Of a stretch of DNA of 64,000 nt, positions 9,017-31,145 are shown piece by piece. Under the pieces are notes generated by a model. The model was not told where the DNA came from. It was given only the letters and a program-made list of their open reading frames with translations, and made no database searches. The position numbers were made by a program, and so were the translations under genes. Numbering within the stretch: the stretch's first letter is position 1; each line of letters begins with the position of its first letter. Source of the stretch: an uncultured Pseudomonadota bacterium (GTDB taxonomy: Bacteria > Pseudomonadota > Alphaproteobacteria > Rs-D84); contig CASEJM010000015.1 in the NCBI GenBank assembly GCA_949288265.1, forward strand, positions 2,052 to 66,051, given 5' to 3'.

Positions 9017-10018
9017 CTATCCAATTTCATCTAATATTGCTTTCAATTCCAACATATCATCTGGTAAACGCGCTTTAAAATGCATTTCTTTTCCCGTAAC
9101 TGGATGATTAAAATCTAACACTTCGGCATGTAACATCTGACCATTATGTCTTCTTAAAAAATCAAGTAATTCTAAATTCTTTACACTGGCCAGTCGTACG
9201 GAAGAACGCCCGTAAACAGGGTCACATAATACAGGAAAACCATGTGCAGATAAATGTACACGAATTTGATGCGTTCTGCCAGTTAATAAAGTACACCTAA
9301 ATTCTGAAACACCGGCACGTGGCCACACATCTGCAACGGCGACTTTAGTATGTGCAGGTTTTCCCCCAGTTTTCACCATCGTCATTTTCTGACGATTACG
9401 AGAAGAACGGGCAATATTTCCTGTAATATCCGCACCTTCCCAATTTGGTACCCCCCATACAAACGCTAAATACTTACGCGTCAAATCATGCGCCGTAAAA
9501 ATTTTAACCAGACCGCGAAAAGCTGCATCTGATTTGGCAAAAACCATCACCCCACTGGTATCCTTATCAAGTCTGTGTACCACCCCAGGTCGAACATCCC
9601 CACCAAGTGTAGATAAATTAGTATGATGTAAAATATTCTGAACCAAAGTACCAGTATTGTTACCAGCTGACGGATACATAACCACGCCACGCGGTTTATT
9701 TATTACGATTATATCGTCATCTTCATATAAAATATCTAAATCCAAATCACAAGAAACGTTTTCCGCCGCAATATTACTTATTCTTTCTGGTATAATTACA
9801 GAAATTTTATCCCCTGCACGAAGACGAGTTGAAAACTTCGTATTTCCACCATTTAAACTTACATTAAACTTTTGAATCTCGCTGCGGGAAAACGCTGGCA
9901 ATAGATCTGCCAAAAACTTATCTAACCTTACGCCAACATCTGAATCAGCTGCCACAAAATCACGAACTTCCTGCATGGAATACCTATTTATATTCAGACC
10001 AATCGGGCCCTTTTTCAC
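9017..10018 (-). CDS. rluD: RluA/RluD-family 23S rRNA pseudouridine synthase (S4 domain plus catalytic domain)
   Basis: HRLDKDTSG catalytic motif, an S4-like N-terminus (RLDKFLADLLP...SRSEIQK) and GRTHQIRVH. The likely true start is the internal ATG at 9976 (MQEVRDF), which avoids overlap with the upstream ORF. Confidence 0.75.
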   Translation of the reverse strand: MKKGPIGLNINRYSMQEVRDFVAADSDVGVRLDKFLADLLPAFSRSEIQKFNVSLNGGNTKFSTRLRAGDKISVIIPERISNIAAENVSCDLDLDILYEDDDIIVINKPRGVVMYPSAGNNTGTLVQNILHHTNLSTLGGDVRPGVVHRLDKDTSGVMVFAKSDAAFRGLVKIFTAHDLTRKYLAFVWGVPNWEGADITGNIARSSRNRQKMTMVKTGGKPAHTKVAVADVWPRAGVSEFRCTLLTGRTHQIRVHLSAHGFPVLCDPVYGRSSVRLASVKNLELLDFLRRHNGQMLHAEVLDFNHPVTGKEMHFKARLPDDMLELKAILDEIG

Positions 10019-10514
10019 ACTTTCCTAAATCAATCGTTAATTCACGCCCTGAACTTTCAACAGGACATATTAACATTCCCGTACTTTCTGCCTGATCCGC
10101 ATCACGTGTTGCATTACGCCATGTAAATTTTATTTCTTCTGGTGCATACAAACACGCAATATGCAGTTCACCATCATGCTTATCATTTGGTCCCAACCAA
10201 ACGCGTACACCATACCCAAGCCCATAACAAGGGAAACCATCTAAATAATACAATACCAACCCTCGACCAACCAAACTAGATGAAGTTATAAAATTTCCGC
10301 GATATTCCGAATAACGCAAACCCGTCAACCCTTCCCAATCTGTACTAGTAGAAAAAATGCTGACGCGCGCTTGCTGATTAGGCTTTGACGGATTATTCCC
10401 CCCCTGTTCTCTTACCTGAGGATGACTTGGTTTTGAATCCTCCGCAATTGCCGGATTTAAAAACAAACTAATCGCGAATAACGTATACAGAAAAACTTTC
10501 ATCTTTTCCCCCAT
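9984..10514 (-). CDS. Secreted hypothetical protein (signal peptide), last gene of the pilin-like operon
   Basis: N-terminal signal MKVFLYTLFAISLFLNPAIA. No known domain. Its start overlaps the stop of the 10514..11020 gene. Confidence 0.45.
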   Translation of the reverse strand: MGEKMKVFLYTLFAISLFLNPAIAEDSKPSHPQVREQGGNNPSKPNQQARVSIFSTSTDWEGLTGLRYSEYRGNFITSSSLVGRGLVLYYLDGFPCYGLGYGVRVWLGPNDKHDGELHIACLYAPEEIKFTWRNATRDADQAESTGMLICPVESSGRELTIDLGKCEKGPDWSEYK

Positions 10515-11020
10515 TATTCTTTACTATCTAATTCAACGGCTATTTTTTCTACGTTTGATACGGGTACAGATAATTTATGAGAAAACTTAACTTCACTGCC
10601 TGCATCTAATAATGTCGCAGAAGGTAAAAATTTTTGTCGTGCTATAACGTTTCCATTAACGTCATATGAAACGATGACCAAACCTGGAGCCCCATAAATC
10701 TGTTCAGACCGATTTACAACCCGCCCCGATACAACAAATTTAGTAATACCACTTTCATCTGTATCGGTTTTTACGTCCATAATTTCCGCAACAATAGGCT
10801 TTTCTTGAATCTCTTTTACCTTATGTTGATACAAAACTGCAACCGCAAATATTAATGCCGCCAATAAAGCACATAATGCAGCAATGAATACTAATACCGA
10901 ATTACGTCGCTGTGGTCGCTGAACAACCCACGTATTACCACAAATCGCACATTTAACGGGTCCAGAAGGAACGACGTCTAAAGAATACTCTGTTTTACAA
11001 AAATTACATACTGTTTTCAT
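10514..11020 (-). CDS. Zinc-ribbon (MJ0042-type C-x2-C...C-x2-C) membrane protein with a DUF3426-like C-terminal domain
   Basis: N-terminal CNFCKTEY...CAICGN zinc-ribbon, then a single TM helix (VLVFIAALCALLAALIFAVAVL), then a ~100-aa beta-rich domain. Confidence 0.5.
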   Translation of the reverse strand: MKTVCNFCKTEYSLDVVPSGPVKCAICGNTWVVQRPQRRNSVLVFIAALCALLAALIFAVAVLYQHKVKEIQEKPIVAEIMDVKTDTDESGITKFVVSGRVVNRSEQIYGAPGLVIVSYDVNGNVIARQKFLPSATLLDAGSEVKFSHKLSVPVSNVEKIAVELDSKE

Positions 11021-11040
11021 AATATGATTTATACCATAAA

Positions 11041-12399
11041 TTATTCTAAATTCAACTGATGATATTTTAACCCCACTGCATTTTGAATTTCATTTATTGC
11101 GTTCATATAATCTGATGCTGTTGCGTTCTTATTAGTAGCTACCGCATTAAATATACGCCAAGTATCTGTATCCGTATCATCTTCTTCATACACAACCGTC
11201 TGCGCCATACGACTTAATTCTTGCAAAGAAACATCCATAAAATTTGCAACACCATAAGAAGCATCCCAATAATAATCAGGGTTAACAGAATCTTCTATTC
11301 TATCATGCACTTCTAACCTTGGTGTAATAGATCCAGCAAAACCAACTGTTACAAACATTGCATCAATGTTTCCACCTGTCATATCCAAAGATTTATTAAT
11401 ATTTAATACAACGGGACCATCGTCTGAATATGTCGACAATCCCCCCAAGGTCATATTAGAAACCCATAAATCCCCCGTAGAAAAACTTGTAAATTTTCCA
11501 GTATCCGCCATGGAAAATGTCTTAGCCACTTCCATTGTTCTGGAATCTGATGACAATGTGCCAGAAACAGTTGCATTTTGTACTTCTAGTATCTTATCTA
11601 ATGTAGTTCTATTTTGAAAAATTGTATCAACTGTTACGGCAACCCCCAGGGTAAGACTTTCTGTAAATTCAACCGCGTCGGCATTAAAAAAAGTAGAATT
11701 ACTTATATCATGTCCACCTAAATTTAAATCAGACAGCATTGTCGCATCTGAAGCATTATCCGTTGGTACTCTGTACAAATACAATGCATTATCACGATTA
11801 ACTGCGGTTGTCTCGACCAACCCATCTGAAACGTTTAAGCCTAAATCTATCGTGTCTGCTCGCCATGCACCAAACGTACCATAGGCACGATTTCCTTCAA
11901 TAAAGCCCATAGAATCACCACCCATAGCAACTATTTCACGGGTACGCATTGGCGTTATCTCATCTGAAGAAAAAACTATTACCCCTTGTAAAGTTGCCCG
12001 ACCATCTATATCACTAGACTTTAAAACACGTAATTGATAACTGCCGGTATCATCTGATGCTAAATCTGGGTTTAAACCGTATTCCGCTAAATCCGCAATA
12101 TTTACTCTTATAATATTTCGTCCAACTGTATTTAAAAACTCTTCACGATGATCTACTATATAACGTTCCAAAGCAGTTTGAATACTTTCCATCTGTTCTG
12201 CAATAGCAACGTTTTCTGCCCGCTGAACAACGCTTTGCTGATACTTAAAAATAAATGGCATAACTATTGCAGCCAGCGCAACGGTCATCAACAATTCAAC
12301 TAACATTGACCCCTTTTGAGAGTCTTTTCTTAATCTTAGACCAAAATTTTTACTTATGTAACTCATCATTGAATTTCCTTTGGCATGGCAAATTGCCAA
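11041..12399 (-). CDS. Large type IV prepilin-like protein (class III signal: KG|SMLVE, Glu at +5), 452 aa in the ORF track
   Basis: Basic leader ending in Gly, then a hydrophobic N-terminal helix SMLVELLMTVALAAIVMPFIF. The probable start is the ATG at 12366, which overlaps the stop of the upstream gene (TGATG-type coupling). The C-terminal 400 aa have no recognised domain. Confidence 0.55.
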   Translation of the reverse strand: MAICHAKGNSMMSYISKNFGLRLRKDSQKGSMLVELLMTVALAAIVMPFIFKYQQSVVQRAENVAIAEQMESIQTALERYIVDHREEFLNTVGRNIIRVNIADLAEYGLNPDLASDDTGSYQLRVLKSSDIDGRATLQGVIVFSSDEITPMRTREIVAMGGDSMGFIEGNRAYGTFGAWRADTIDLGLNVSDGLVETTAVNRDNALYLYRVPTDNASDATMLSDLNLGGHDISNSTFFNADAVEFTESLTLGVAVTVDTIFQNRTTLDKILEVQNATVSGTLSSDSRTMEVAKTFSMADTGKFTSFSTGDLWVSNMTLGGLSTYSDDGPVVLNINKSLDMTGGNIDAMFVTVGFAGSITPRLEVHDRIEDSVNPDYYWDASYGVANFMDVSLQELSRMAQTVVYEEDDTDTDTWRIFNAVATNKNATASDYMNAINEIQNAVGLKYHQLNLE

Positions 12400-13574
12400 T
12401 CTGATGACATTATCGTATCAAATTCCTTTGGGTCTGGCATCACAGGAATCGTACCACGCGATAAATATAATTCAGAAAAACTTGGTGGCGTCAAAGACGG
12501 AAATACCCAACTACCTATTTTTAACGGCGGCGTCGTTGACATTAACAATTCACCAGATATCGTCAAACCAAAATCTTCATAAAATATTATTTCTTCTGCC
12601 GACACAAATGAAGTAAGGACAGTGTGTGCAACAATTCCTGTAAATCCACTGATTGTACGACTAGAATCAGACTTTAACGTTAAAACATTTCCAACATTTA
12701 CCGAATTTACAACAGTCGCCCTGTCTGTTATTATTCTTCCAGATGTTGTGTAATTATCACCATTTAAAGTATCCGCATATATATTTCTAAAACCAGAAAC
12801 ATCGCCAGTAACGCGCATAGAACCAAACCAAGATTTATCCCCGTCAAGATTTGCACCGGACGAAAAATACAATGTATCCGCTGACAAATTACTTGTTTCT
12901 ATAAATTGACTGGTCGCATTTTTAATTTTTGCCGATTTAGCAAAAATTCCACCTACGTCATAAACGCGATTATAATTCATATTTAAATCACGAAGCATTA
13001 CATTAAGATGTTCTTCACCTGTTTCCGTTTGATGTAAATATTTTGTTTTATCTTCACCGTCTAAATCCCGTGATATTCGATATATTAAATCACCAGACTT
13101 AAAATCTGGTGCAGACACGGCCCACGTTTGTCCGTATGCTATACCATCGTCACCTACGACAGCAGCATCAGAGCCTATATGCCTTGCAACTTTTGAGGTA
13201 CGTAAATCTGTTTCATCTAAATCAAAAGACAAATACACATCAGTAATAGTTGCCCCATTTACGACATATTTATCAACAAAACCTGCTATAGGTAAGGTGG
13301 ATATTTCATCTAATTCTTCGTCTGATAATTTTATTTGAGCAACATCCGGCCAGTCATTCTGATTTAAACGAACAAAATTTAATACTTTATCACGCAAACC
13401 GATAATTTTATTTGCTTCTGCAATATCTCGCAACGTATCGTTTGTGTCGGAAATTTGACTGTATAACAGTGGCGTTGCCATTGCAACAATCGCCATTGCC
13501 AGTAATACTTCCAGCATACTAGCGCCATATTGAATATTAGTAAAAAATTTCATTTTACTTACAGTCACTGCCAC
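12366..13574 (-). CDS. Large type IV prepilin-like protein (YG|ASMLE, Glu at +5), about 400 aa
   Basis: Prepilin-peptidase-type N-terminus MKFFTNIQYG|ASMLEVLLAMAIVAMATPLL. Overlaps its neighbours by 20 and 34 nt, so it belongs to the same operon. Confidence 0.55.
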   Translation of the reverse strand: MAVTVSKMKFFTNIQYGASMLEVLLAMAIVAMATPLLYSQISDTNDTLRDIAEANKIIGLRDKVLNFVRLNQNDWPDVAQIKLSDEELDEISTLPIAGFVDKYVVNGATITDVYLSFDLDETDLRTSKVARHIGSDAAVVGDDGIAYGQTWAVSAPDFKSGDLIYRISRDLDGEDKTKYLHQTETGEEHLNVMLRDLNMNYNRVYDVGGIFAKSAKIKNATSQFIETSNLSADTLYFSSGANLDGDKSWFGSMRVTGDVSGFRNIYADTLNGDNYTTSGRIITDRATVVNSVNVGNVLTLKSDSSRTISGFTGIVAHTVLTSFVSAEEIIFYEDFGLTISGELLMSTTPPLKIGSWVFPSLTPPSFSELYLSRGTIPVMPDPKEFDTIMSSDWQFAMPKEIQ

Positions 13575-14964
13575 CTTCTAATAAACATTGCTTTATTTTT
13601 ATTCTTTTCTCTAAACGCTGCCAGAAATAGTATTGACATATTATATACTGAGACAAAGACTTTGCATTATAGCGCCCTTCAAGTTTTGATATGATGTCAC
13701 GACAACTTTGTGTTTTATCGTCATCTGCAGATGGGCGATTTATTATCGAAAAACCATCATTACTAATTGTATTCAAAAGTACATCTGGTAATACTGACGT
13801 ACCAGCAGGCCTAATATCCAAAACCACAGCCCCAGTTTCCCCTTGGTTCAACGCATCAGATGTCTGATCGCGCATAGTTATATTGGAAACAATTATTGTA
13901 TTAGTCTCAAGACCTGTACGAGAACTATATTCTAAATTATCTGGGTCAATATACACGTCTTGTCCGCGCGATGCATCTATATAAGAATCTATATCTAAAC
14001 GTTCCAAACTAAAATTAATATTTTCACTTATAACGTCTCCATTCACAGTCCAATTAGGCGGGCCTGAAAAACTTGTTCGCCCCGCTGTCATTGCAAAATC
14101 ATAAACGGATGCAGTATTTGAAGTAAAATTACCGGTATCACCAAACATTGATACAGTTCTTGTAGAAAAGTCGTCAACGTATAAAGAACCGCGCGTCAAT
14201 GATAAAGCAGATTCACCTAAAGGGCTTTGAAAAACGGCACGATCTGCCATCATAACTTCTATTGTGTTACGTACTTTTCTTCCGTCTTCTACCCCATACA
14301 AAGACAATGTATTAAATTGCCCGCTATCAAACTCGCCACGACGAGCAAAAATTTCACCGCCATTATTAAAAGAAAATCCCCCCATATCAAGATTAGTTAA
14401 AAAAGCGTTATCATCTAAGTTTTGTTCATTTCTTCGCACAACATCCGAATAAGCAGAATCTAAGGCCAAACCAACTAAAATCGCATCACCGGATACAGAA
14501 GCATAAAAACCTATTCTTCTTGCCAGTTCGGCCAATTCTACTGCGGATAAATCGCCACCACTTAACTGCAAATACGCGCTAACCGCCATTGGCGTTTTAT
14601 TTATCACCAAAGATATATCTTGTCCCAAAGCCGTGCGTGGCACAAACCCAAGCGGTAAACCATAAGATTCCAACAAATCAGAAAAAGTATTACCAGAAAC
14701 AACGGTTGTATTATAAGGTAAATCATTTGCCCGCTCACGAATGAAAATTCTTGCGGCAGTTTGCGCAACTTCTACTTTCTGCGTAGAAGCATACATCTGC
14801 GCATCAATATCTCTTGCCGCCAACCGTTGTGCAAAAAACGGTATGAACGAAAATATCAGCGCCAGCGCAAGCAATGCTTGTAACAAAAAATTACCACTTT
14901 GTCGCTGCAAGTCCGTCACCCTCCTACACCTGTAAATATTAGCAATTGAAAAAAAATATTGCAA
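13555..14964 (-). CDS. Large prepilin-like protein (SG|NFLLQ, Gln instead of Glu at +5, as in GspK/PilX-type minor pilins), 469 aa
   Basis: A hydrophobic N-terminal helix LLQALLALALIFSFIPFF follows a Gly-ending leader. First gene of the operon. Confidence 0.45.
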   Translation of the reverse strand: MQYFFSIANIYRCRRVTDLQRQSGNFLLQALLALALIFSFIPFFAQRLAARDIDAQMYASTQKVEVAQTAARIFIRERANDLPYNTTVVSGNTFSDLLESYGLPLGFVPRTALGQDISLVINKTPMAVSAYLQLSGGDLSAVELAELARRIGFYASVSGDAILVGLALDSAYSDVVRRNEQNLDDNAFLTNLDMGGFSFNNGGEIFARRGEFDSGQFNTLSLYGVEDGRKVRNTIEVMMADRAVFQSPLGESALSLTRGSLYVDDFSTRTVSMFGDTGNFTSNTASVYDFAMTAGRTSFSGPPNWTVNGDVISENINFSLERLDIDSYIDASRGQDVYIDPDNLEYSSRTGLETNTIIVSNITMRDQTSDALNQGETGAVVLDIRPAGTSVLPDVLLNTISNDGFSIINRPSADDDKTQSCRDIISKLEGRYNAKSLSQYIICQYYFWQRLEKRIKIKQCLLEGGSDCK

Positions 14965-15055
14965 TCGCTTTTAAGATTCAGTATCATTTAATCTGTTGAA
15001 TAAGCGATAGTGATAAAACACTATTAAACATTTTCCTAAAAACAGAAAAAAGAAT

Positions 15056-15364
15056 ATGCAAAACAAAAAAAATCAATCGTCTGTCGGGCTGATGATTCAG
15101 CGCTGTCATAAATGGCGTCAGAAAAGAAAACAATATATGGATCAGGCTCGTCAAACTGCGGATGAAATTGAACGTGAACGTTTAATGCAAGCGGCAGAAC
15201 ATTATGGGCGTATAGTAAACGCAGAACAGGGTAAAATAGATTCTACTCGTGACCCTAAAGACAAAACGCCTGTCATCGAAGAAACCACAGATATTGTCGA
15301 TACGATGGAAACTTCTGACGATGATGATGTATCTTTTCCGGATTTCATCACAAACGAAAAATAA
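15056..15364 (+). CDS. Small basic/acidic hypothetical protein
   Basis: 102-aa ORF upstream of dnaX on the same strand. Basic N-terminus and an acidic DDDD C-terminus. No recognised domain. Confidence 0.3.
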   Translation: MQNKKNQSSVGLMIQRCHKWRQKRKQYMDQARQTADEIERERLMQAAEHYGRIVNAEQGKIDSTRDPKDKTPVIEETTDIVDTMETSDDDDVSFPDFITNEK

Positions 15365-15444
15365 ATTTTTAGCGCGTAAACCATACTTTACTTCTTGAAA
15401 TTTTACTATGTTTTGGTATGCTTGCCCCAAAGGAAGTTTAAGCA

Positions 15445-16989
15445 ATGGATAGCAATTATACAGTTTTAGCGCGCAAATACCGCAGTCAAGATTTTAAATC
15501 ATTAATCGGTCAAGATGTATTAGTCAAAACTTTGACTACTGCCATAAATACGGGACGCATTGCACACGCTTATATTTTTACGGGCATTCGTGGTACGGGG
15601 AAAACCAGTACTGCTCGCATTTTAGCAAAAGCTTTAAATTGTCAATCCTCTGACGGGCCGACTGCTTCACCATGTGGGACTTGTGAAAACTGTCGCGCAA
15701 TTGCAGCAGGACAACATATTGACGTGTTAGAAATTGACGCGGCGTCGCATACGGGTGTTGATAACATGCGTGATATATTAGATGCCTCTCAATATCGTCC
15801 TACGAATGGCAGATACAAAGTATATATAATTGACGAAGTACATATGTTATCTACCAGTGCATTTAACGCGTTACTAAAAACACTGGAAGAACCACCAGCA
15901 CACGTAATATTCATTCTTGCGACAACAGAAATTCGTAAGGTACCGGTTACAATTTTATCACGCTGTCAGCGATTTGATTTAGTTCGCGTACCCGTAGAAA
16001 CACTAAAACAACATTTTTCTTGGATTGCATCACAAGAAAAAATAGAACTAAGTGACGCCGCAAACGAACTTTTAGCACGGGCCGCGGATGGTTCTGTCAG
16101 GGATGGATTATCATTACTTGACCAAGCGATTGCACAAACGGGTGGACACGTTGACGAACAGGCTGTTCTAGACATGTTAAAGCGCGCAGACCGTGGGGTT
16201 GTTGTCAATTTTATGGAAACTTTATTATCTGGTGACACTGCCGCTGCTTTGGCAAAAGCAGACGAAATTTATACAAACGGTGCCGACCTTGCAATGTTAC
16301 TAAATGATATGATGGAATGGACGCATTGGGCGACGCGTATGCATCCTTCAATTCATGCTGGCGAAGTTATAAATTCTCCGTATACTGCCGATCAACGTGA
16401 ACAAATTAAAAAAATTGATTCTCAGGTATCATTAAACACATTATCAAGAATTTGGCAAGTAATGGTCGCTGCGGTACCAGAAATGCAAGCATCTGGTAAT
16501 CAGAAACAATGTTTCGATATGTTAATTGTTAGATTAATGCATATTGCCGACATGCCTTCTGTAGCAGATATATTAAAAAACCAAAAAAACCAACAAGCCT
16601 CTTCTTCGGTAACGCCACAACCCGTAACGCAACAAAAGCAGGAAACCAATCAAAAATTTAATATTGAAAACGCAAACGATTTGGCTTGCGCATTACAAGC
16701 TTCCAAAGAAATATTATTATATTCATATTATACAAGTAATATAGAAGTTATAGAAATATCTAATACAACCATAAAATATTTCGACAGGCGCGGTGATGCG
16801 GATTTCGCGCACAAAATGACAACATGGTTGAATGACAAGACCGGAAAAATTTGGACCATGGAACGGATTGAACAATCTCAGAACACGCACACAATTACCG
16901 AACAGAAAAAAGAAGAGTTAGAAGCAGACCCAATGGTTGCCAGTGCAATGGATTTATTTACCGACGCCGAAATTGTTGGTGTAAAATGA
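15445..16989 (+). CDS. dnaX: DNA polymerase III subunit tau (DnaX)
   Basis: Walker A GIRGTGKTSTARILAK, a Cys4 zinc module (CQSSDGPTASPCGTCENC), DEVHML, and SRC in sensor 2. A-rich heptamers are present, but the -1 frame stays open, so only tau is predicted. Confidence 0.9.
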   Translation: MDSNYTVLARKYRSQDFKSLIGQDVLVKTLTTAINTGRIAHAYIFTGIRGTGKTSTARILAKALNCQSSDGPTASPCGTCENCRAIAAGQHIDVLEIDAASHTGVDNMRDILDASQYRPTNGRYKVYIIDEVHMLSTSAFNALLKTLEEPPAHVIFILATTEIRKVPVTILSRCQRFDLVRVPVETLKQHFSWIASQEKIELSDAANELLARAADGSVRDGLSLLDQAIAQTGGHVDEQAVLDMLKRADRGVVVNFMETLLSGDTAAALAKADEIYTNGADLAMLLNDMMEWTHWATRMHPSIHAGEVINSPYTADQREQIKKIDSQVSLNTLSRIWQVMVAAVPEMQASGNQKQCFDMLIVRLMHIADMPSVADILKNQKNQQASSSVTPQPVTQQKQETNQKFNIENANDLACALQASKEILLYSYYTSNIEVIEISNTTIKYFDRRGDADFAHKMTTWLNDKTGKIWTMERIEQSQNTHTITEQKKEELEADPMVASAMDLFTDAEIVGVK

Positions 16990-17465
16990 AACAGGAGATC
17001 AACATGACACAAGAACGAGGGGCATCAATTATAGAAGTAATAGGGGTGTTAGCAATTGCTGGATTAATGAGTGCGGCGGCAATTGGTATGTATAACGTAA
17101 TAAGAAATAATCAGGCACGAAAAATTGCTTCTGTTGAATTGGAACAGATTGCAAAGAACACAGAACTATTAATGGGTATGCGTGATGACTACACAGGCTT
17201 ATCAATTAAATATCTTGTATCTGCGGGCGCATTAAATAGCTCTAAAGCACCTATTGGGGGTGACGATTGGTCTGTATCGGCGACAAATGACGGTAAAGGT
17301 TACTCAATAAATCTTACTCAATTAAGTGAAAGCGAATGCCAGTATTTTACTTCGACGCAACCTAAATGGGCAACTAGTATGACGGCAAATGGTGTAAAAG
17401 TAACAGCGACGCCAAATTGTTTTTCAACCAGAACGAATAAAGTTTCTTTTTTAGTGGAAAAATGA
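16986..17465 (+). CDS. Type IV pilin-like protein (RG|ASIIE, Glu at +5), 159 aa
   Basis: Prepilin-type N-terminus followed by the hydrophobic helix VIGVLAIAGLMSAAAIGMY. Overlaps the dnaX stop (ATGA). Confidence 0.6.
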   Translation: MKQEINMTQERGASIIEVIGVLAIAGLMSAAAIGMYNVIRNNQARKIASVELEQIAKNTELLMGMRDDYTGLSIKYLVSAGALNSSKAPIGGDDWSVSATNDGKGYSINLTQLSESECQYFTSTQPKWATSMTANGVKVTATPNCFSTRTNKVSFLVEK

Positions 17466-17474
17466 ATTAAGTAA

Positions 17475-18149
17475 ATGAATTTACATAAATATATTTCTTT
17501 ATTTATATTCTTAATTATGACGGCGTGCGTGCAATACCATAGTCCTGAAAGATCAACATGGTCGCAATATCTTCGAGGGGCCAGTTTTACCGACATGACA
17601 GAAACCGCTCGTATTGCTAAACGTCCTGTTTTTCTTGGTGCGGGGGGTAAACTTATAAGTTCTGTTGAAAGCCCGGCAAAAATGGATTATGGGGACAAAT
17701 CTCAAAATGATACAGCCATAAGCGTCAATTATATGGCAAATTTAGAGTATGAATTATATGATGCACTTAGAAAGCCTGGTATATCTGTTCAGAGGGCTGG
17801 AACAGATGTAGTTATAATTTTAGTCCGAGACGCAATTATGGAACTGAACGTTGCCGACATATCAGCAGACGGGGCAGACACTCTTAAAACAATCACAAAA
17901 ATCTTAAATAAATATGATGCGACGTTCATGGAAATTGCGGGTTATACAGACGCAATGGCAAAAAAACAGGCCGACGCTTTATCATTAGATATGGCCCAAC
18001 GCGTTGGTGTATTCTTTTCGCAACAAGGTATTAGTACTACTCGTATGTTTATAGTTGGTCGCGGCTCGGCAAGACCTATTGCGGGTCAAGATGACATCGG
18101 TCGTTTAACCAATCGTCGGATTGAAATTCGCTTAGTACCTGCACGATAA
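17475..18149 (+). CDS. OmpA-family lipoprotein (lipobox ...MTAC; C-terminal OmpA/MotB peptidoglycan-binding domain)
   Basis: Signal plus Cys (LIMTAC). C-terminus GYTDAMA...NRRIEIRLVP matches the OmpA_C motif (GHTD...NRRVEI). Confidence 0.65.
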   Translation: MNLHKYISLFIFLIMTACVQYHSPERSTWSQYLRGASFTDMTETARIAKRPVFLGAGGKLISSVESPAKMDYGDKSQNDTAISVNYMANLEYELYDALRKPGISVQRAGTDVVIILVRDAIMELNVADISADGADTLKTITKILNKYDATFMEIAGYTDAMAKKQADALSLDMAQRVGVFFSQQGISTTRMFIVGRGSARPIAGQDDIGRLTNRRIEIRLVPAR

Positions 18150-22969: not shown

Positions 22970-25192
22970 ATGGTTGAAAAATTCAAGATTTTATCCGCAG
23001 GTGGTAAGTCTAAAGGCTTGAATATATTCAAGTCCTCTGCTTATAAAGAACATCAGCGAACCCCGATGGCTTCGCTGTTTTGGTCTTTACGCTGGTCTGT
23101 CGGTATATGGCTGGTTTGTGCACTGGCATTTGGACTATCTTTCTGGATTGAACACATATGGCGTTATGGTTGGTCACCTGCAACTGCACATTGGTCTGCT
23201 TTATATTTCAATAATATGTTAACAAGCGGTGGAATATCTATATTGGCAGAAGTACCTGCATGGTTCATAAGAACGCTGTTACGTACGGATATTGCTTGTA
23301 TGGTACCGTTGCTACCCATAATCGCTTATTTCTTTATGTCAGATGCGACACTAGTCAAAGAATTTAACCCATATGGTAATGATAAATTTGACGAGAAATC
23401 TTCTAATAAAGCCACGAAAGAAGATATAGAAAAAATGGGACTTTTAAAGGGTTTTATGATGGTATTAGGGTATTTTAAGAAAAAACCCTTAATGATGAAC
23501 GAATGTTTATCCGCATTATGTGTTGCGCCTCCGGGGACAGGTAAAACATATGGCGTTGTTGTTCCTACCATATTTGAATGCAACGAAGTATCTATGATTA
23601 TTAACGATCCGAAACCAGAATTGTACCAATGTACGTCTGCATACCGTTCTACGATTGGGCCTGTGTTCATTATGAACTGGGCGGGTCAAGACGACCCAGA
23701 ACGTGGAATTTACTATCCGTCTTGGAATCCGTTATCACCGGAACACGTGCCATTTAACCAAGAACAACGTGATTTGTATGTTGATTCAATATGCAACGTT
23801 TTGGTAGCAGACAAAGCGTCTTCAACCGCGGATCCACACTGGACTATTTCTGGGCGTGCCGGATTATCTGGATTAATTCAATTCATGATTTCTAAAGTAG
23901 AACGCGCGAAAGCCGATGATTATTTTTATTCGCGTATAACTTCCGGTACGTTTGATGAAGAAGACGCGGCAGTTCTTGGTGATTATTACTTATCAATGAT
24001 GAACGATCCTAACGCTTACGCGGCATACGCTTTGCTACAAAAAGGCGAATTGAATGCTATGAATTATGTTCACATTGGTACGTGGGATAAAATACCCGAT
24101 TCTTGGAAAGGTAAAGAAGCGTCTTTGTCAATGATTTTAGACTGGATAAATTCCAGTCAAATTGGTCTTGCACAACAACAAGAAGAACGCCGCCGTCAGG
24201 GCGATCAAATGGTAATGATGGAAGACCCTATGCACGACTTATTTATGAATGCCGTTGATGAAGCGCGTAGGTATTCATACGCACATAGGGCTGTTTTAGA
24301 ATTAACGCAATTAGCAAATACACCTGACAAAGAACGCGGGTCCATAATATCTACTATAATGGCGGGACTATCAATATTCCGTAACGCAGCTGTACGCAAT
24401 CGCACCAGCCATTCAGATTTCCACTTTTCTGATTTACGCGGACTACGCGATCCACGCGACGGTAAGATAAAGCCCGTTACAGTATATCTATCAATTAACA
24501 TGGTTGATGCAGAAGCTTTAAACCCAATTACAGGCATATTCATTGAATTAATGACTAACTTCTTATTGGCAAATAAACCAGAGCAAGAAAATAACGGTGA
24601 AAGACTGGGGCCATATCCTGTATTATTCATATTAGACGAAATGCCAAAGATGCAAAAATTACAGGCAGTTATACAAGGTCCAGATCTTGGGCGCGGTCAG
24701 AAAGTTTCATATTTAATCATCGGTCAAGACTTACACCAAATTCAAGAAAAATATGGGGCAGATGCGGCAGCTACTATTATATCCACTACGGCGGCAAAGG
24801 TTGTTTTACGACAAAACGACCCAGATACAGCCCAACGTTTCTCTGGCATGATGGGGTATAAAATTAAAATAAAGACAGTAAAAGGTCCTGACGGCAAAGA
24901 AACAGAAGAGAAAAGCCAAGAACCATTATATTCCCCGATGGACATTATGAAGCTTGATGATAAAAAACAATTGGTTATATTCCAAGGGTGGTATCATCGC
25001 CCTATAGAAGCCGACAAACAAATGTCATTTGCGGACCCACGTTTATCCAGTTATATGGCAATGGGGGCATGCAGTCCGCTGCCAGAATTCTTAATACCAG
25101 CGCATCATGTGGCCCTTGGTTATTCTGGTAATCCACGAATGTATATTCCGCAAACAAAAGAAATAAAGGAACTTGAACCAATAAAAAAATAA
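22970..25192 (+). CDS. virD4: Type IV secretion coupling protein, VirD4/TraG family (T4CP)
   Basis: N-terminal TM segments. Walker A-like region CVAPPGTGKTYGVVVPT followed by NDPKPELY...AYRSTIGPVFIMN...WNPL, which parallels VirD4 (APTRSGKGVG...NDIKGELY...GYR...FNPL). Walker B-like VLFILDEMPKM. No other T4SS genes in the window. Confidence 0.7.
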   Translation: MVEKFKILSAGGKSKGLNIFKSSAYKEHQRTPMASLFWSLRWSVGIWLVCALAFGLSFWIEHIWRYGWSPATAHWSALYFNNMLTSGGISILAEVPAWFIRTLLRTDIACMVPLLPIIAYFFMSDATLVKEFNPYGNDKFDEKSSNKATKEDIEKMGLLKGFMMVLGYFKKKPLMMNECLSALCVAPPGTGKTYGVVVPTIFECNEVSMIINDPKPELYQCTSAYRSTIGPVFIMNWAGQDDPERGIYYPSWNPLSPEHVPFNQEQRDLYVDSICNVLVADKASSTADPHWTISGRAGLSGLIQFMISKVERAKADDYFYSRITSGTFDEEDAAVLGDYYLSMMNDPNAYAAYALLQKGELNAMNYVHIGTWDKIPDSWKGKEASLSMILDWINSSQIGLAQQQEERRRQGDQMVMMEDPMHDLFMNAVDEARRYSYAHRAVLELTQLANTPDKERGSIISTIMAGLSIFRNAAVRNRTSHSDFHFSDLRGLRDPRDGKIKPVTVYLSINMVDAEALNPITGIFIELMTNFLLANKPEQENNGERLGPYPVLFILDEMPKMQKLQAVIQGPDLGRGQKVSYLIIGQDLHQIQEKYGADAAATIISTTAAKVVLRQNDPDTAQRFSGMMGYKIKIKTVKGPDGKETEEKSQEPLYSPMDIMKLDDKKQLVIFQGWYHRPIEADKQMSFADPRLSSYMAMGACSPLPEFLIPAHHVALGYSGNPRMYIPQTKEIKELEPIKK

Positions 25193-28991: not shown

Positions 28992-31145
28992 TTATGCTGC
29001 TTTACCTGAAACAAACCAATAACCATAGTTAGACCCAGATACACCGGCATATCTACAAACGAATACGAAACTAGTTTCTGTCTGGTTGTTATATCCTGTA
29101 TCGTAACCACTTGCCGATGTCTTGCCGTAAAAACCCTGAACGATAGTATAATGGCTATCAGACATAGGAATCGGTAAACTTACAGTATTTTCTGGAGATG
29201 TTGGGGGCATAATATATCCACCCTGCTCAACCCACCCAGACTTATACATACGATACCAAGTGTAACTATTATCTTCTGTGGGTAATTGAGAAGCAACCAC
29301 ATAATCGCAATTAGTTGATAAGTTAGATAAATCAGTTTTTAAAAAACTGGTCGCAGAGATAACGCCATCTGATATATTAATGTTCTCACCGGCCGTAAGT
29401 TTATCCTGTTTATTTTCAACCGCGTCTTGAATAGTTTTTAAGTCAATTACCCGAAAAGCATTTGCCTGATTTATGCTGTTTATGCGAGTTCCATCATTAC
29501 CTATATCGGCAATTTTTGCATAACTTCTATTAGTTCCATCTGGAATATATTTTATAAAATTGCTTTCTTCATCATACTTATAAATTCCCACATCAACAGC
29601 GACCAAACCGGAAGCATTTGCCCATAATTCCTGTCTGGAAAAATCAGGGAAAGTATAAACTTTCACTTCATTTTGAACATTCATAGAGTTTTTCAAACTT
29701 CCATCCGAGTTTATGCCATTAGGTGCCAAAACTTGTAATCCAGGCAGTGTGAATGCAGTTATACCAATAAATCCGACGCAGTTGAAAATCTGGTCTATAC
29801 TTATTACTGTGCCAGCAGAATTCATAGAAACTATCGCAATAGGTAATGATATATTATATACATTCCAGGTGCTGCCAGCATTATTTGTATATTTTATCTG
29901 ATTGTTTGCAGTATCATACCATATATGAGTATTACCTGTTAAACCTGTTGGGACTGTATTACCTGACCATTCTCTTTCAAAAGGAAAATAATCATCAGAA
30001 GATGGGTTATAAACTAAAAGTCCTTGTGATTCACCAAAATTTTGAACAGTTAATGTTTTATCGCTTTGTAAAACTGTTTCTGTAAAGACCCCAACGCCAT
30101 TAGGAACATAAACAACGCTTCCAGCTTTTAATGTAAGGACTCCGTTTTCTAGCGTAATTTTTACCTTTTGCGGTTTTTGTACTATACAATTAGTGATTTT
30201 ATTACTTAATTTTTCAATATTTGAAACGCTTAATGGCAAAGCATTTGTACCGGCACCAGACAAACTTTCATCGTGACTTACAGCCAACAAACCTTCTGCC
30301 CCCGAAGAAGCCATTGCCGAAGTAATAATGTTACCATCTATACCAACTTGTAAAAACTTTCCTGCGTTTTCTGAACCTTGCTGAATACTTATTTTACCAG
30401 ATATCTGGTTTGCATAAGCATCATACGTAGCCACTTTAGTTGATGTAATACCAGAATTAGTTGCTTGCAATTGTACATTTGTTAGTAGATTCTGTTTTTC
30501 CGCCAATGCACTAGAAACTTCGCTTTTGGTTGCATACAAAGACATATCATGAGTATGATTTGCTAATGCAAAATTACTTGTATCTGGTATTTCGTCTTTA
30601 GTTGCGAAATCACTTGTGTCTGGAATTTCATCTTTAGTTACAAAGTCGCTTATGTCCGGGAACTCATCTTTTTTTACAAAATTACTAACGTCTGGTATTT
30701 CATCTTTTCTTGCCAGTTCGTCAAGACCACCCAAATTATCTATTTGCTCCTGTATAGAATCTACGAATTGCACAGCATTTTCAATATTTGCTATATCCCC
30801 ATCTAATTCATATATATCTTTCATAAACTCTAACATAAAATTAAAGTCAGCATTTAAACTTTCTGTTTGTATAGGTAAAGTCGGTTGATAATCTATGACA
30901 CGTGATAAATCTATTTTACGCCATATACGAATAGTCGCGCCTGATACAGGTGCTGTATTTAAAACAATTTTACCACCTGGATACATACCATCACTTTGTA
31001 AATTTTTAGAAAAAACTACGGTATATTCACTAATTTTTAAGATCTCAGAATTTATAGAAACTTTTACATCGGCAGCTTTAAAAAAGGGAAATGCAAAATC
31101 AAACTCTGTTGTTGAACCGTCACCGGTATATTGTATCAGATACAT
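28992..31145 (-). CDS. Phage tail-fibre protein with a T7 gp17-like N-terminal tail-attachment domain, 12-aa tandem repeats and a C-terminal receptor-binding region
   Basis: N-terminus MYLIQYTGDGSTTEFDFAFPFF...VKV...ATIRIWRK...LNADFNFM parallels T7 gp17 (DGSNRDFNIPFEYL...VVV...IELRR...DGSILRAYDLN). Repeats KDE(I/F)PD(V/I/T)S(N/D)F x4. The long, low-Cys, Gly/Ser/Thr/Asn-rich C-terminus is typical of fibres. Confidence 0.7.
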   Translation of the reverse strand: MYLIQYTGDGSTTEFDFAFPFFKAADVKVSINSEILKISEYTVVFSKNLQSDGMYPGGKIVLNTAPVSGATIRIWRKIDLSRVIDYQPTLPIQTESLNADFNFMLEFMKDIYELDGDIANIENAVQFVDSIQEQIDNLGGLDELARKDEIPDVSNFVKKDEFPDISDFVTKDEIPDTSDFATKDEIPDTSNFALANHTHDMSLYATKSEVSSALAEKQNLLTNVQLQATNSGITSTKVATYDAYANQISGKISIQQGSENAGKFLQVGIDGNIITSAMASSGAEGLLAVSHDESLSGAGTNALPLSVSNIEKLSNKITNCIVQKPQKVKITLENGVLTLKAGSVVYVPNGVGVFTETVLQSDKTLTVQNFGESQGLLVYNPSSDDYFPFEREWSGNTVPTGLTGNTHIWYDTANNQIKYTNNAGSTWNVYNISLPIAIVSMNSAGTVISIDQIFNCVGFIGITAFTLPGLQVLAPNGINSDGSLKNSMNVQNEVKVYTFPDFSRQELWANASGLVAVDVGIYKYDEESNFIKYIPDGTNRSYAKIADIGNDGTRINSINQANAFRVIDLKTIQDAVENKQDKLTAGENINISDGVISATSFLKTDLSNLSTNCDYVVASQLPTEDNSYTWYRMYKSGWVEQGGYIMPPTSPENTVSLPIPMSDSHYTIVQGFYGKTSASGYDTGYNNQTETSFVFVCRYAGVSGSNYGYWFVSGKAA
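30571..30714. repeat. 4 x 36-bp imperfect tandem repeat within the tail-fibre gene (encodes the KDEIPDxSxF repeats)
   Basis: Units at 30571-30606, 30607-30642, 30643-30678 and 30679-30714, about 75-85% identical to each other. Confidence 0.7.

What the first reader, a model, noticed from the sequence alone, without database searches (positions are those of the whole stretch)
9984..14964. Operon of three giant (about 400-470 aa) type IV prepilin-like proteins plus a zinc-ribbon/DUF3426-like membrane protein and a secreted protein
Three consecutive, overlapping ORFs each begin with a class-III signal (basic leader, Gly at -1, hydrophobic helix, and Glu or Gln at +5: G|SMLVE, G|ASMLE, G|NFLLQ). 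They are 2-3 times longer than typical minor pilins and have no recognisable C-terminal domains. They are translationally coupled by stop/start overlaps (e.g. ATG at 12366 overlapping the upstream stop). Two further genes follow: an MJ0042-type zinc-ribbon single-pass membrane protein and a signal-peptide protein. No pilus ATPase, platform, secretin or prepilin peptidase is encoded nearby. This could be a tip or priming complex of an unusual type IV filament (adhesion, DNA uptake or secretion) whose machinery is elsewhere, or a new pilin-like surface structure.
Basis: partly seen in the sequence, partly recalled or inferred. Interest (0 to 1): 0.7.

Follow-up and report, generated by a model that had tools for sequence, protein, structure and literature searches.

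The report
Triad of PilV-like pilus tip proteins
A gut bacterium with a very small genome (Candidatus Enterousia) carries an operon of three large, related pilin-like proteins that are distant relatives of PilV, the tip adhesin of conjugative type IVb pili, and they are probably the adhesive tip of a thin pilus that holds the cell to a partner.

Summary
On the minus strand there are three coupled genes: A 13555-14910, B 12366-13574 and C 11041-12369. A zinc-ribbon/TM/DUF3426 gene, a signal-peptide gene and rluD follow, and a hairpin terminator lies at about 9000. The window comes from Candidatus Enterousia (Alphaproteobacteria, order Rs-D84, genomes under 1 Mb, animal gut). The five-gene order is identical in 80/80 related species. 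Gly-1 is invariant in all three families. Glu+5 is invariant in B and C. A always has Gln+5.

The three proteins are paralogs with no Pfam assignment. Profile-profile comparison shows all three are remote homologs of the N-terminal constant region of IncI-plasmid PilV, the type IVb minor pilin and tip adhesin (probability 98-99%, E 1e-14 to 1e-17). The same A-B-C triad recurs in distant lineages, in places at 1,100-1,200 aa per protein.

Congeners carry a conserved pilO-pilP-ATPase-platform module. In one species it lies 4 kb from the triad operon.

I found no prepilin peptidase or secretin. I could not locate the assembly module in this genome.

Verdict: a new variant of a known kind.

The parts
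13555..14910 (-). Gene A: PilV-like pilin-like protein, 451 aa. It has a 6-residue leader (M)QRQSG|NFLLQ and Gln instead of Glu at +5. Four conserved C-terminal Cys.
   Evidence: ORF. TTG start 9 nt after AGGAGG. The position of the start codon reads L/V/M in 19 of 20 orthologs checked. Motif conserved in 80 loci. Alignment A4. hhalign against PilV gives probability 98.2%, E 4.7e-14.
12366..13574 (-). Gene B: PilV-like pilin-like protein, 402 aa. Leader of about 17 residues ending in G|ASMLE.
11041..12369 (-). Gene C: PilV-like pilin-like protein, 442 aa. Leader of 20 residues ending in G|SMLVE.
   Evidence: ATG overlaps B's stop as ATGA. P0121 is 100% identical at 442 aa. hhalign against PilV gives probability 98.7%, E 4.1e-16 over 250 columns. 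Serratia PilV hits C orthologs directly by tblastn, E down to 3.5e-10 in a small database.
10514..11020 (-). Gene D: ZitP-like bitopic protein, 168 aa. It has an N-terminal CxxC-x15-CxxC zinc ribbon, one TM helix and a periplasmic DUF3426-like domain.
   Evidence: Pfam hits are sub-threshold in the window protein. Zn_ribbon_4 is found in 20/21 orthologs and DUF3426 in 14/21. Cysteines are invariant. Architecture as described for ZitP in PMC5182063.
9984..10514 (-). Gene E: secreted or periplasmic protein of unknown function, 176 aa (or 172 aa from ATG 10502). Conserved motif R-I-S-I-F-S-T-S-T-D-W.
   Evidence: No family hit. Always follows D in 80 loci.
9017..10018 (-). rluD-like pseudouridine synthase. 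It is the last gene of the same transcription unit and a housekeeping passenger.
   Evidence: Pfam PseudoU_synth_2, E 6.8e-28. Overlaps or abuts E. Always follows E in 80 loci.
8986..9008 (-). Intrinsic-terminator-like hairpin (10 bp stem plus T run) that closes the A-B-C-D-E-rluD unit.
   Evidence: This is a consensus match only.
14911..15055 (.). Divergent intergenic region, 145 nt, between gene A and the DUF4167 gene. It is the presumed promoter region of the operon.
   Evidence: No promoter was demonstrated; the scan is at chance level.
17004..17465 (+). PilS-like type IV pilin, 153 aa. Leader MTQERG|ASIIE and two conserved Cys (C112, C139). It is the candidate major pilin and lies between dnaX and an OmpA lipoprotein gene.
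   Evidence: Pfam PilS is found in 15/21 orthologs (best E 2.6e-5) and N_methyl in 15/21. It keeps this position in 78 of 80 loci, and where dnaX has moved (L033) it moved with dnaX. The link to PilS is weak when tested against a single sequence.
17475..18149 (+). OmpA-family lipoprotein, 224 aa, directly after the pilin gene in all species. Whether it belongs to the pilus system is uncertain.
   Evidence: Pfam OmpA, E 9.4e-10. Lipobox visible in the sequence. Synteny.

Best explanation
Genes A, B and C encode three paralogous, PilV-like minor pilins of a type IVb pilus of the R64/IncI thin-pilus kind.

Each protein has three parts:
- a class-III signal;
- an N-terminal pilin domain homologous to the constant region of PilV;
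- a private C-terminal half of about 200 residues.

Proposed mechanism (inferred):
1. A prepilin peptidase, not yet located, cleaves after Gly-1.
2. The three hydrophobic alpha1 helices dock together at the platform of the PilO/PilP/ATPase/PilR machine that congeners encode.
3. This primes polymerisation of the 153-aa PilS-like pilin beneath them.
4. The three proteins end up at the tip, where their C-terminal domains bind a surface ligand on a partner cell. This parallels PilV binding recipient cells in conjugation.

A, which lacks Glu+5, would be the topmost subunit.

The co-transcribed ZitP-like protein D and periplasmic protein E would position or help assemble the apparatus, as ZitP does for Caulobacter pili.

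Shown: homology, pilin fold, conservation, operon structure, and machinery in congeners. Inferred: processing, tip location, 1:1:1 complex, adhesion, and the role of D and E.
For: Homology to PilV:
- Profile-profile comparison of each family with an IncI-plasmid PilV alignment gives probability 98.8% (E 4e-17) for B, 98.2% (E 5e-14) for A and 98.7% (E 4e-16) for C. It covers the first 190-250 columns, including the shared signature YL(H/Y)R...LN.M...(D)(L/M).M...(I/L).N(V).
- Serratia PilV hits C orthologs and distant triad members directly.
- Pfam Shufflon_N gives a weak hit on a distant A-type protein.

Pilin fold:
- AF2 residues 20-172 of B have pLDDT 85-93, forming alpha1 plus a sheet.

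Class-III signal under selection:
- Gly-1 is invariant in four gene families (A, B, C and the 153-aa pilin) across 80 species. Glu+5 is invariant in B, C and the small pilin.

Operon:
- Overlapping stops and starts, a single downstream terminator, and identical order in 80/80 loci.

Triad is the conserved unit:
- The same A-B-C order occurs in unrelated genomic contexts in L082 and L083. L094/L095 also hold three consecutive family members, 1236/1083/1188 aa.

Machinery exists in the genus:
- A module of PAP_PilO, a PilP-like protein (TIGR03021, 31 bits against a cutoff of 34.65), a T2SSE ATPase (31% identical to R64-type PilQ, E 4e-53) and a T2SSF platform (E 3e-32) is complete in 76 of 87 related loci. 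The other loci are short or cut contigs.
- It lies on the same contig or in the same MAG as the triad in at least three verified genomes: L098=L043, L048, and L097 with L029. Matching longest-contig lengths suggest two more.
- In L098 everything lies within 13 kb.

Function of the homologs:
- PilV is a minor pilin and adhesin that selects recipient cells (PMC9045228).
- The type IVb minor pilins TcpB and CofB initiate assembly (PMC5207764).
- The DUF3426 domain of ZitP is required for pilus biogenesis in Caulobacter (PMC5182063).
Against: - No prepilin peptidase (A24) and no secretin was found in the 64-kb window or in any locus around the triad or the ATPase module. I used Pfam on window ORFs, tblastn with Serratia PilU and PilN, motif scans and a multi-TM ORF census. 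These are local samples, not whole genomes.
- The pilO-P-Q-R module is not in this window and could not be located for this genome.
- A genome survey of Rs-D84 reported type IV pili only for another lineage (PMC12306168).
- Single-sequence N_methyl and pilin models stay below threshold.
- The +1 residue is A/S/N/G rather than F/M.
- A lacks Glu+5.
- The C-terminal halves could not be modelled (pLDDT below 50). They are almost as conserved as the N-terminal halves (55-62% against 61-66% median identity). There is therefore no direct sign of an adhesin domain or of diversifying selection.
- The link of the 153-aa pilin to PilS is weak.
Confidence: 0.6

Rival explanations
1. Same proteins and same machine, but A, B and C are three alternative tip adhesins. 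Each pilus would carry one kind. They would be a hard-wired equivalent of shufflon-generated PilV variants rather than a 1:1:1 heterotrimeric tip.
For: In IncI plasmids one PilV N-terminal region is combined with alternative C-termini to change target specificity (PMC9045228). A, B and C share the PilV-like N-terminal domain and differ most in their C-terminal halves.
Against: The number three and the order A-B-C are fixed in every lineage seen, including distant ones and giant versions. The genes are translationally coupled, which favours equal stoichiometry. A differs systematically from B and C in having a 6-residue leader and no Glu+5, which suggests different positions in one complex. The C-terminal halves are not hypervariable.
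Confidence: 0.2
2. A, B and C form a short periplasmic pseudopilus. It would act as a type II secretion-like piston that exports proteins such as E or the neighbouring Cys-rich secreted proteins, not as a surface adhesive filament.
For: The best NCBIfam match of the ATPase is GspE, and of the platform GspF. Weak N-terminal matches of A, B and C to GspI, GspK and ComGG. No retraction ATPase was seen. Several large secreted proteins are encoded next to the operon. The type IVb system TCP also secretes TcpF (PMC5207764).
Against: All GspE, GspF and Gsp-pseudopilin scores are far below the equivalog cutoffs (218 against 630 bits, 77 against 424 bits, and 12-15 against 44-130 bits). The accessory proteins are the R64-type PilO (PAP_PilO) and PilP. 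The specific homolog of A, B and C is the pilus tip adhesin PilV. A PilS-like pilin with a C-terminal disulfide is present. No GspC, GspL, GspM or GspD was seen.
Confidence: 0.12
3. The N-termini are not cleaved. A, B and C would be bitopic inner-membrane proteins with large periplasmic domains, forming an envelope or polar complex with the ZitP-like protein D and independent of any pilus.
For: No prepilin peptidase was found in any sampled region. The published survey does not list type IV pili for Rs-D84. The operon is co-transcribed with a ZitP-like polarity protein and never sits beside the assembly genes, except in L098 and L048.
Against: Strict conservation of Gly-1 and of a charged Glu five residues into a membrane helix, in four families over 80 species, is hard to explain without peptidase recognition and filament packing. 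A dedicated assembly ATPase, platform, PilO and PilP are kept at 72-100% ATPase identity in genomes under 1 Mb. That would be pointless without pilin substrates. The only pilin-like genes seen in the sampled regions are these four.
Confidence: 0.1
4. The locus is a decaying remnant of an integrated IncI- or ICE-like conjugative element and no longer has a function.
For: The closest characterised homologs are plasmid- and ICE-borne. A VirD4-type coupling protein gene lies 8 kb away. The full plasmid gene set (pilL, M, N, T, U) was not found.
Against: All ORFs are intact and syntenic in 80/80 species. Identity is 53-86% with motifs preserved. The genes sit among housekeeping genes in genomes that have shed most dispensable genes. 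No integrase, shufflon repeats or composition anomaly is present.
Confidence: 0.02

Closest known systems
PilV, the minor pilin and tip adhesin of the type IVb thin pilus of IncI1/IncI2 plasmids (R64, TP114) and PAPI-1-type ICEs; Pfam Shufflon_N (PF04917)
   Same: - Class-III signal and similar size (430-460 aa).
- Homologous N-terminal 200-270 residues, including the LYR...LN.M...DM...LNNV signature.
- Accompanied in the genome by homologs of PilO, PilP, the PilQ ATPase, the PilR platform and a PilS-like pilin.
   Different: - Identity is only about 20%, and single-sequence Pfam finds nothing in the window proteins.
- Three fixed paralogs in tandem instead of one gene with shufflon-switched C-termini. 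No sfx-like repeats or recombinase.
- Chromosomal core genes of a genome-reduced alphaproteobacterium, in an operon separate from the assembly genes and joined to a ZitP-like gene.
- C-terminal halves are unrelated to those of PilV.
- A has Gln at +5.
TcpB (Vibrio cholerae TCP) and CofB (ETEC CFA/III), the large minor pilins of type IVb pili
   Same: - Large (over 400 aa) pilin-like proteins of type IVb systems, present at about one unit per pilus. They initiate assembly from the tip (PMC5207764).
- From my own knowledge, CofB acts as a trimer. That matches the idea that three subunits cap the filament.
- The pilin domain of B superposes best on the major pilins of these two systems, TcpA and CofA.
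   Different: - No sequence similarity to any solved chain was detected.
- Here there are three different genes rather than one gene acting as a homo-oligomer.
- The C-terminal fold is unknown.
Minor (pseudo)pilin priming complexes: GspH-I-J-K of type II secretion and FimU-PilVWX of type IVa pili
   Same: - Several co-transcribed pilin-like proteins are thought to form the filament tip.
- From my own knowledge, the topmost member (GspK, PilX) lacks Glu5, as A does here.
   Different: - Only sub-threshold N-terminal matches (12-15 bits against cutoffs of 44-130).
- Three members rather than four.
- Each is 2-3 times larger.
- All three are paralogs of one another.
ZitP of Caulobacter crescentus and other Alphaproteobacteria
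   Same: - Same order of parts: cytoplasmic CxxC...CxxC zinc ribbon, one TM helix, periplasmic DUF3426.
- ZitP's DUF3426 domain is needed for pilus biogenesis (PMC5182063).
   Different: - D is 168 aa against 311 aa.
- The cysteine spacer is 15 rather than 19 residues.
- Pfam scores are below threshold in the window protein.
- ZitP serves a Tad/Cpa (type IVc) pilus through CpaM, and no CpaM-like gene is seen here.
- Orthology was not tested against a ZitP sequence.

Membership tests
Type IV pilin-like proteins (class-III signal peptide) | Short positively charged leader ending in Gly at -1 | tested here: met
   A (M)QRQSG|, B ...NIQYG|, C ...KDSQKG|. Gly-1 is kept in every ortholog of 80 loci.
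Type IV pilin-like proteins (class-III signal peptide) | Glu at +5 of the mature protein | tested here: inconclusive
   Invariant in B, C and the 153-aa pilin. A has Gln in all Enterousia orthologs, but Glu in the distant A-type proteins of L082 and L083. From my own knowledge, some tip-located minor pilins also lack Glu5.
Type IV pilin-like proteins (class-III signal peptide) | About 20 hydrophobic residues forming alpha1-N, followed by an alpha-beta pilin domain | tested here: met
Type IV pilin-like proteins (class-III signal peptide) | Match to the curated N-terminal methylation models (Pfam N_methyl PF07963, TIGR02532) above threshold | tested here: not met
   B scores 12.8 bits against a cutoff of 21.2. 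A and C have no hit. TIGR02532 scores 9.6 against 16.3.
Type IV pilin-like proteins (class-III signal peptide) | Cleavage, and usually N-methylation, by an A24 prepilin peptidase | not testable with these tools
   No A24 gene was found in the window or in any fetched locus. Whole genomes could not be read.
PilV / Shufflon_N (PF04917) | Sequence homology to the N-terminal constant region of PilV | tested here: met
   hhalign probability 98.2-98.8%, E 5e-14 to 4e-17, for all three families. The Pfam HMM itself does not report the window proteins. It gives only a weak hit on a distant relative.
PilV / Shufflon_N (PF04917) | C-terminal segments exchanged by a shufflon (repeated sfx sites plus an Rci recombinase) | tested here: not met
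   Only chance-level short repeats occur in 8900-15500. No recombinase was found in the window. The three C-termini are fixed and conserved.
PilV / Shufflon_N (PF04917) | Last gene of a pilL-V operon on a conjugative plasmid or ICE, directly after the prepilin peptidase gene | tested here: not met
   In plasmids pilV follows pilU. Here the genes are chromosomal, flanked by dnaX and rluD, and separate from the assembly genes.
PilV / Shufflon_N (PF04917) | Located at the pilus tip and binds recipient-cell surface (LPS) | not testable with these tools
   Function is known from PMC9045228. There are no data for these proteins.
Type IVb pilus system of the R64 thin-pilus type | Assembly ATPase (PilQ) and polytopic platform (PilR) | tested here: inconclusive
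   Present in congeners: ATPase E 4e-53 and platform E 3e-32 against the Serratia plasmid proteins. They occur in every related locus whose contig is long enough. They are absent from this 64-kb window and were not located for this genome.
Type IVb pilus system of the R64 thin-pilus type | R64-type accessory proteins PilO (PF06864) and PilP (TIGR03021) | tested here: inconclusive
   In congeners, PAP_PilO scores E 3.7e-11 and 43 bits against a cutoff of 26.7. pilP_fam scores 31 bits against a cutoff of 34.65. Neither is in this window.
Type IVb pilus system of the R64 thin-pilus type | Major pilin of the PilS type | tested here: inconclusive
   For the 153-aa pilin, Pfam PilS scores 16.5 bits (cutoff 22) in the window protein. 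It matches 15/21 orthologs at E<0.05, best 2.6e-5. hhalign against one PilS is not significant.
Type IVb pilus system of the R64 thin-pilus type | Outer-membrane secretin (PilN) and prepilin peptidase (PilU) | tested here: not met
   Not found in the window or in any of the loci fetched around the triad or the ATPase module. The search covered neighbourhoods only, so absence from the genomes is not shown.
ZitP (zinc-finger targeting protein) | N-terminal CxxC...CxxC zinc ribbon, one TM helix, periplasmic DUF3426 | tested here: met
   Four invariant Cys and a TM helix. Zn_ribbon_4 in 20/21 orthologs (best E 7e-7) and DUF3426 in 14/21 (best E 5e-6). The window protein itself is below the Pfam cutoffs.
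ZitP (zinc-finger targeting protein) | Binds PopZ and recruits CpaM to the pole | not testable with these tools
   Described in PMC5182063. No PopZ or CpaM gene was identified here.
Type II secretion minor pseudopilins (GspH/I/J/K) | Match to the equivalog models | tested here: not met
   GspI 15.2 bits against 44.35. GspK 12.7 against 130. GspH 12.9 against 80. All matches are confined to the N-terminal helix.

The most novel reading that the evidence does not exclude
The triad is an obligate 1:1:1 heterotrimeric tip, with A (no Glu5) on top. It caps a conjugation-type type IVb pilus that was captured from a mobile element and fixed in the core chromosome of the partner-dependent order Rs-D84. 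A ZitP-like protein aims it at the cell pole. It works with the chromosomal type IV secretion system (VirD4/VirB4) as the device that recognises and holds the host cell. This would be an alphaproteobacterial counterpart of the pilus-driven episymbiosis of Saccharibacteria. The 1,100-1,200-aa versions in related lineages would be long-reach variants of the same tip.
Probability: 0.3. Interest if true: 0.75.

Novelty: new variant of a known kind. Interest (0 to 1): 0.55.

Why it matters
Candidatus Enterousia and the rest of order Rs-D84 are widespread, uncultured gut bacteria. Their genomes are under 1 Mb and lack most biosynthesis. They are suspected to live off other cells, but no attachment or exchange apparatus has been described for them (PMC12306168).

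This work identifies candidates for that apparatus:
- three PilV-like tip proteins;
- a PilS-like pilin;
- a PilO/PilP/ATPase/platform module;
- a ZitP-like partner.

All are kept in genomes that have discarded almost everything dispensable.

It also assigns a homology-based role to a protein family of more than 1,000 database members that has no name and no Pfam domain. It further shows that the PilV adhesin fold, known from conjugative plasmids, exists as a fixed three-gene set in chromosomes. If the three proteins form one heterotrimeric cap, they would be a natural dissection of what homo-oligomeric type IVb minor pilins such as CofB and TcpB do.

Tried and rejected
- Single-sequence Pfam, NCBIfam and PDB sequence searches of A, B and C gave only sub-threshold N-terminal hits.
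- The first AF2 model, built on a shallow alignment, and a Foldseek search of the PDB gave nothing usable. The afdb50 library was unavailable.
- tblastn of window protein A against plasmids found nothing.
- hhalign of the 153-aa pilin against one PilS was not significant.
- I considered a Tad/Flp system (TadE/TadF/TadG) because the host is an alphaproteobacterium and some NCBI names for the ATPase say 'TadA'. No TadE or Flp model matched. The accessory proteins are R64-type PilO and PilP, and the specific homolog is PilV.
- I considered a shufflon. No repeats or recombinase were found.
- I looked for the peptidase and secretin with tblastn (Serratia PilU, PilN), motif scans and a census of multi-TM ORFs over all fetched loci. 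Nothing was found.
- I tried to reach beyond the window end. All assemblies break after tolC, next to recF.
- The paper by Begmatov et al. 2023 on Enterousia is not held, and no supplements are held for PMC12306168.

Full report
**What is there.** The region holds six minus-strand genes that form one unit:
- A, 13555-14910
- B, 12366-13574
- C, 11041-12369
- D, 10514-11020
- E, 9984-10514
- an rluD-like gene, 9017-10018

A terminator-like hairpin at 9008-8986 closes the unit. A and B overlap by 20 nt. B's TGA and C's ATG overlap as ATGA. D and E abut.

Two starts differ from the mechanical ORF list:
- A begins at TTG 14910, 9 nt after AGGAGG. In 19 of 20 orthologs checked this codon position reads L, V or M, and several stop-to-stop frames are too short for any longer leader.
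- C begins at ATG 12369, which matches a 442-aa database protein that is 100% identical.

The corrected sizes are 451, 402 and 442 aa.

**Where it comes from.** The best relatives are MAGs named Candidatus Enterousia or 'uncultured Alphaproteobacteria/Rickettsiales' from human, chicken and ruminant guts. The window has 38% GC and is otherwise filled with housekeeping genes: dnaX, lpxD, fabZ, infB, nusA, pnp, mutS, parAB, lptD/F and others.

Enterousia belongs to order Rs-D84. Its genomes are under 1 Mb and lack respiration and most biosynthesis. It is suspected to depend on partner cells. The published survey reports type IV pili only for a different lineage (PMC12306168).

**Is the class-III signal real?** A, B and C each start with a basic leader, Gly, and about 20 hydrophobic residues. 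Across 80 species loci with strictly conserved gene order:
- Gly-1 is never replaced in any of the three.
- Glu+5 is never replaced in B or C.
- A always has Gln+5 and a 6-residue leader.

It has the leader MTQERG|ASIIE, invariant Gly-1 and Glu+5, and two conserved cysteines. Pfam PilS and N_methyl each match 15 of 21 orthologs. It is the obvious candidate for a major pilin, but the PilS link is weak.

**What A, B and C are.** They are paralogs of each other: 24-26% identity, pairwise E 1e-4 to 2e-3. Curated libraries and the PDB give nothing significant on single sequences.

B has 1122 and C has 876 database homologs. All those listed are unnamed or called hypothetical, and none has a Pfam domain. 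At 50% clustering the B profile finds only 185 representatives worldwide, so the family is narrow.

Two leads pointed to PilV:
- a weak precomputed Shufflon_N hit on a distant A-type protein;
- an E = 0.9 tblastn hit to a plasmid pilV.

I fetched seven IncI-type PilV sequences, aligned them and compared profiles:

| Family | Probability | E-value | Aligned columns |
|---|---|---|---|
| B vs PilV | 98.8% | 4.4e-17 | 245 |
| A vs PilV | 98.2% | 4.7e-14 | 191 |
| C vs PilV | 98.7% | 4.1e-16 | 250 |

The aligned part is the PilV constant region: leader, alpha1, the globular pilin domain and the signature ...YL(H/Y)R...LN.M...DL.M..n.I.nV. In the small local database, Serratia PilV also hits C orthologs and distant triad members directly by tblastn.

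The C-terminal halves, about 200 aa each, remain unmodelled. They are not hypervariable: median identity is 55-62%, against 61-66% for the N-terminal halves. There is no shufflon.

**The triad is the unit.** More distant family members again come as three consecutive genes:
- L082: 487/423/544 aa, followed by recO.
- L083: 469/455/489 aa, followed by recO.
- L094/L095: 1236/1083/1188 aa.

In L082 and L083 the third gene matches C, the second matches B, and the first is A-like with a short leader. In L094/L095 all three genes hit PilV, but I did not map them individually to A, B and C. In L082 and L083 all three members have Glu+5. None of these triads sits beside assembly genes.

A fixed number, a fixed order, translational coupling and one member with a distinct N-terminus are what a 1:1:1 complex would predict. 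This is an inference.

**Machinery.** The 64-kb window has none. However, when the thin-pilus proteins of a Serratia plasmid were searched against all fetched loci, two Enterousia species gave strong hits to the ATPase (E 5e-49) and the platform protein (E 3e-28).

The ATPase has at least 120 clusters at 87-100% identity in 'Alphaproteobacteria bacterium' MAGs. Its surroundings always read:
- PAP_PilO (420 aa)
- a PilP-like protein (223-233 aa; TIGR03021, 31 bits against a cutoff of 34.65)
- T2SSE ATPase (542 aa)
- T2SSF platform (356 aa)

This four-gene order is complete in 76 of 87 loci drawn from genomes and metagenomes; the other loci are short or cut contigs.

The module shares a contig or MAG with the triad in at least three verified genomes, and matching longest-contig lengths suggest two more. 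In one of them (L098) the whole set lies within 13 kb, in this layout: D<-C<-B<-A | DUF4167-dnaX-pilin-OmpA-OmpH-PilO-PilP-ATPase-platform.

The system is therefore a recognisable relative of the R64 thin pilus, with homologs of PilO, PilP, PilQ, PilR, PilS (weak) and PilV (three copies).

**What is missing.**
- No A24 prepilin peptidase and no secretin was found in the window or in any sampled neighbourhood.
- The module could not be located for the genome of this window. All assemblies of this strain break just past tolC, next to recF.
- Whole genomes could not be read with the tools available, so this remains the main gap.

**D and E.** D has four invariant cysteines (CxxC-x15-CxxC), one TM helix and a DUF3426-like periplasmic domain. 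This is the architecture of ZitP. ZitP's DUF3426 domain is required for pilus biogenesis at the Caulobacter pole (PMC5182063).

D and E follow the triad in all 80 Enterousia loci but not in the distant triads. E is a conserved secreted protein with no known relatives.

**Most likely mechanism (confidence 0.6).** After cleavage at Gly-1, A, B and C assemble through their alpha1 helices on the PilR/ATPase platform and prime polymerisation of the 153-aa pilin. They then ride at the tip, with A on top, and present their C-terminal domains to a ligand on a partner cell.

This follows what is known for homologous and analogous proteins:
- PilV selects and holds recipient cells, including in the gut (PMC9045228).
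- The type IVb minor pilins TcpB and CofB initiate assembly at roughly one unit per pilus (PMC5207764).

Rivals:
- three alternative adhesins rather than one complex (0.2);
- a secretion pseudopilus (0.12);
- uncleaved membrane anchors (0.1);
- a dead mobile-element remnant (0.02).

**Comparison and novelty.** The proteins work like PilV, and by profile homology they belong to its superfamily. They fail three features that define plasmid PilV:
- shufflon switching;
- position after pilU in a plasmid pil operon;
- a match to the Pfam model on single sequences.

They are best filed as a new variant: a chromosomal, three-paralog, ZitP-linked PilV-like set in a genome-reduced alphaproteobacterial lineage. 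I found no paper describing it in the searches run.

Interest is moderate (0.55). The kind of system is known. What is new is the fixed triad, the giant versions, the host lineage and the link to a suspected partner-dependent lifestyle. These give a concrete, testable handle on how these uncultured gut bacteria might attach to other cells.

Noticed in passing
window 17004-17465 (+) and 17475-18149 (+): A 153-aa PilS-like type IV pilin gene sits directly after dnaX and is followed by an OmpA-family lipoprotein gene. The arrangement dnaX-pilin-OmpA is kept in nearly all 80 related species. In L043/L098 and L048 it continues through ompH into pilO-pilP-ATPase-platform.
   Followed up: yes
window 5792-8902 (-), 1881-3914 (-), 1072-1878 (-), 4-861 (+): A run of large, Cys-rich proteins lies just downstream of the operon. 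Three have signal peptides (1036, 677 and 268 aa); the 285-aa ORF at 4-861 has none that I could see. None has a Pfam hit. They evolve much faster than their neighbours (44-74% identity for the 1036-aa protein where dnaX is 73-91%). They are possibly surface or effector proteins.
   Followed up: partly
window 3703-5757 (+): A 684-aa ORF rich in Lys, Asn and Ile lies in the lowest-GC stretch of the window (30% GC at 4001-6000). It overlaps the 5' end of the neighbouring minus-strand gene by about 200 nt and has no family hit. Its real start and function are unknown.
   Followed up: no
window 22970-25192 (+); also L096 3034-5286 and L100 1-1873: A chromosomal VirD4-type coupling protein gene lies 8 kb from the operon. 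In another species the same VirD4-rsmE-rluX-TPR block is directly followed by pilO-pilP-ATPase-platform. In a third species a VirB4 gene lies 6 kb upstream of pilO. The type IVb pilus genes and the type IV secretion genes may share an origin or a function, as on IncI plasmids.
   Followed up: partly
window 28992-31145 (-): A 717-aa protein whose first 88 residues match the N-terminal domain of the phage T7 tail fibre (Pfam E 1.3e-6). It sits in an otherwise housekeeping region.
   Followed up: no
L094 3551-14143 and L095 5798-12770: A giant version of the triad, with three consecutive pilin-like proteins of 1236, 1083 and 1188 aa, in an unidentified low-GC organism. L081 holds a single 1146-aa relative with a PilS-domain gene 3 kb away.
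   Followed up: partly
L100 6437-7969: In one Enterousia lineage a 138-aa lipoprotein and a 321-aa protein with an outer-membrane beta-barrel-like C-terminus (ending ...GLRFEF) lie directly upstream of pilO. Neither has a family hit. They could be outer-membrane parts of the pilus system in place of a classical secretin.
   Followed up: no
window 63944-64000 and L183 1-480: All eight assemblies that carry this strain's HlyD-like gene break within about 500 bp past tolC, next to the 5' end of a recF-like gene. This suggests a repeat or a variable region there.
   Followed up: no
window 15056-15364 (+): A small DUF4167-like protein gene lies divergent from gene A and shares the 145-nt intergenic region. 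This pairing is kept in all 80 loci, even where dnaX has moved away (L033, L060).
   Followed up: no
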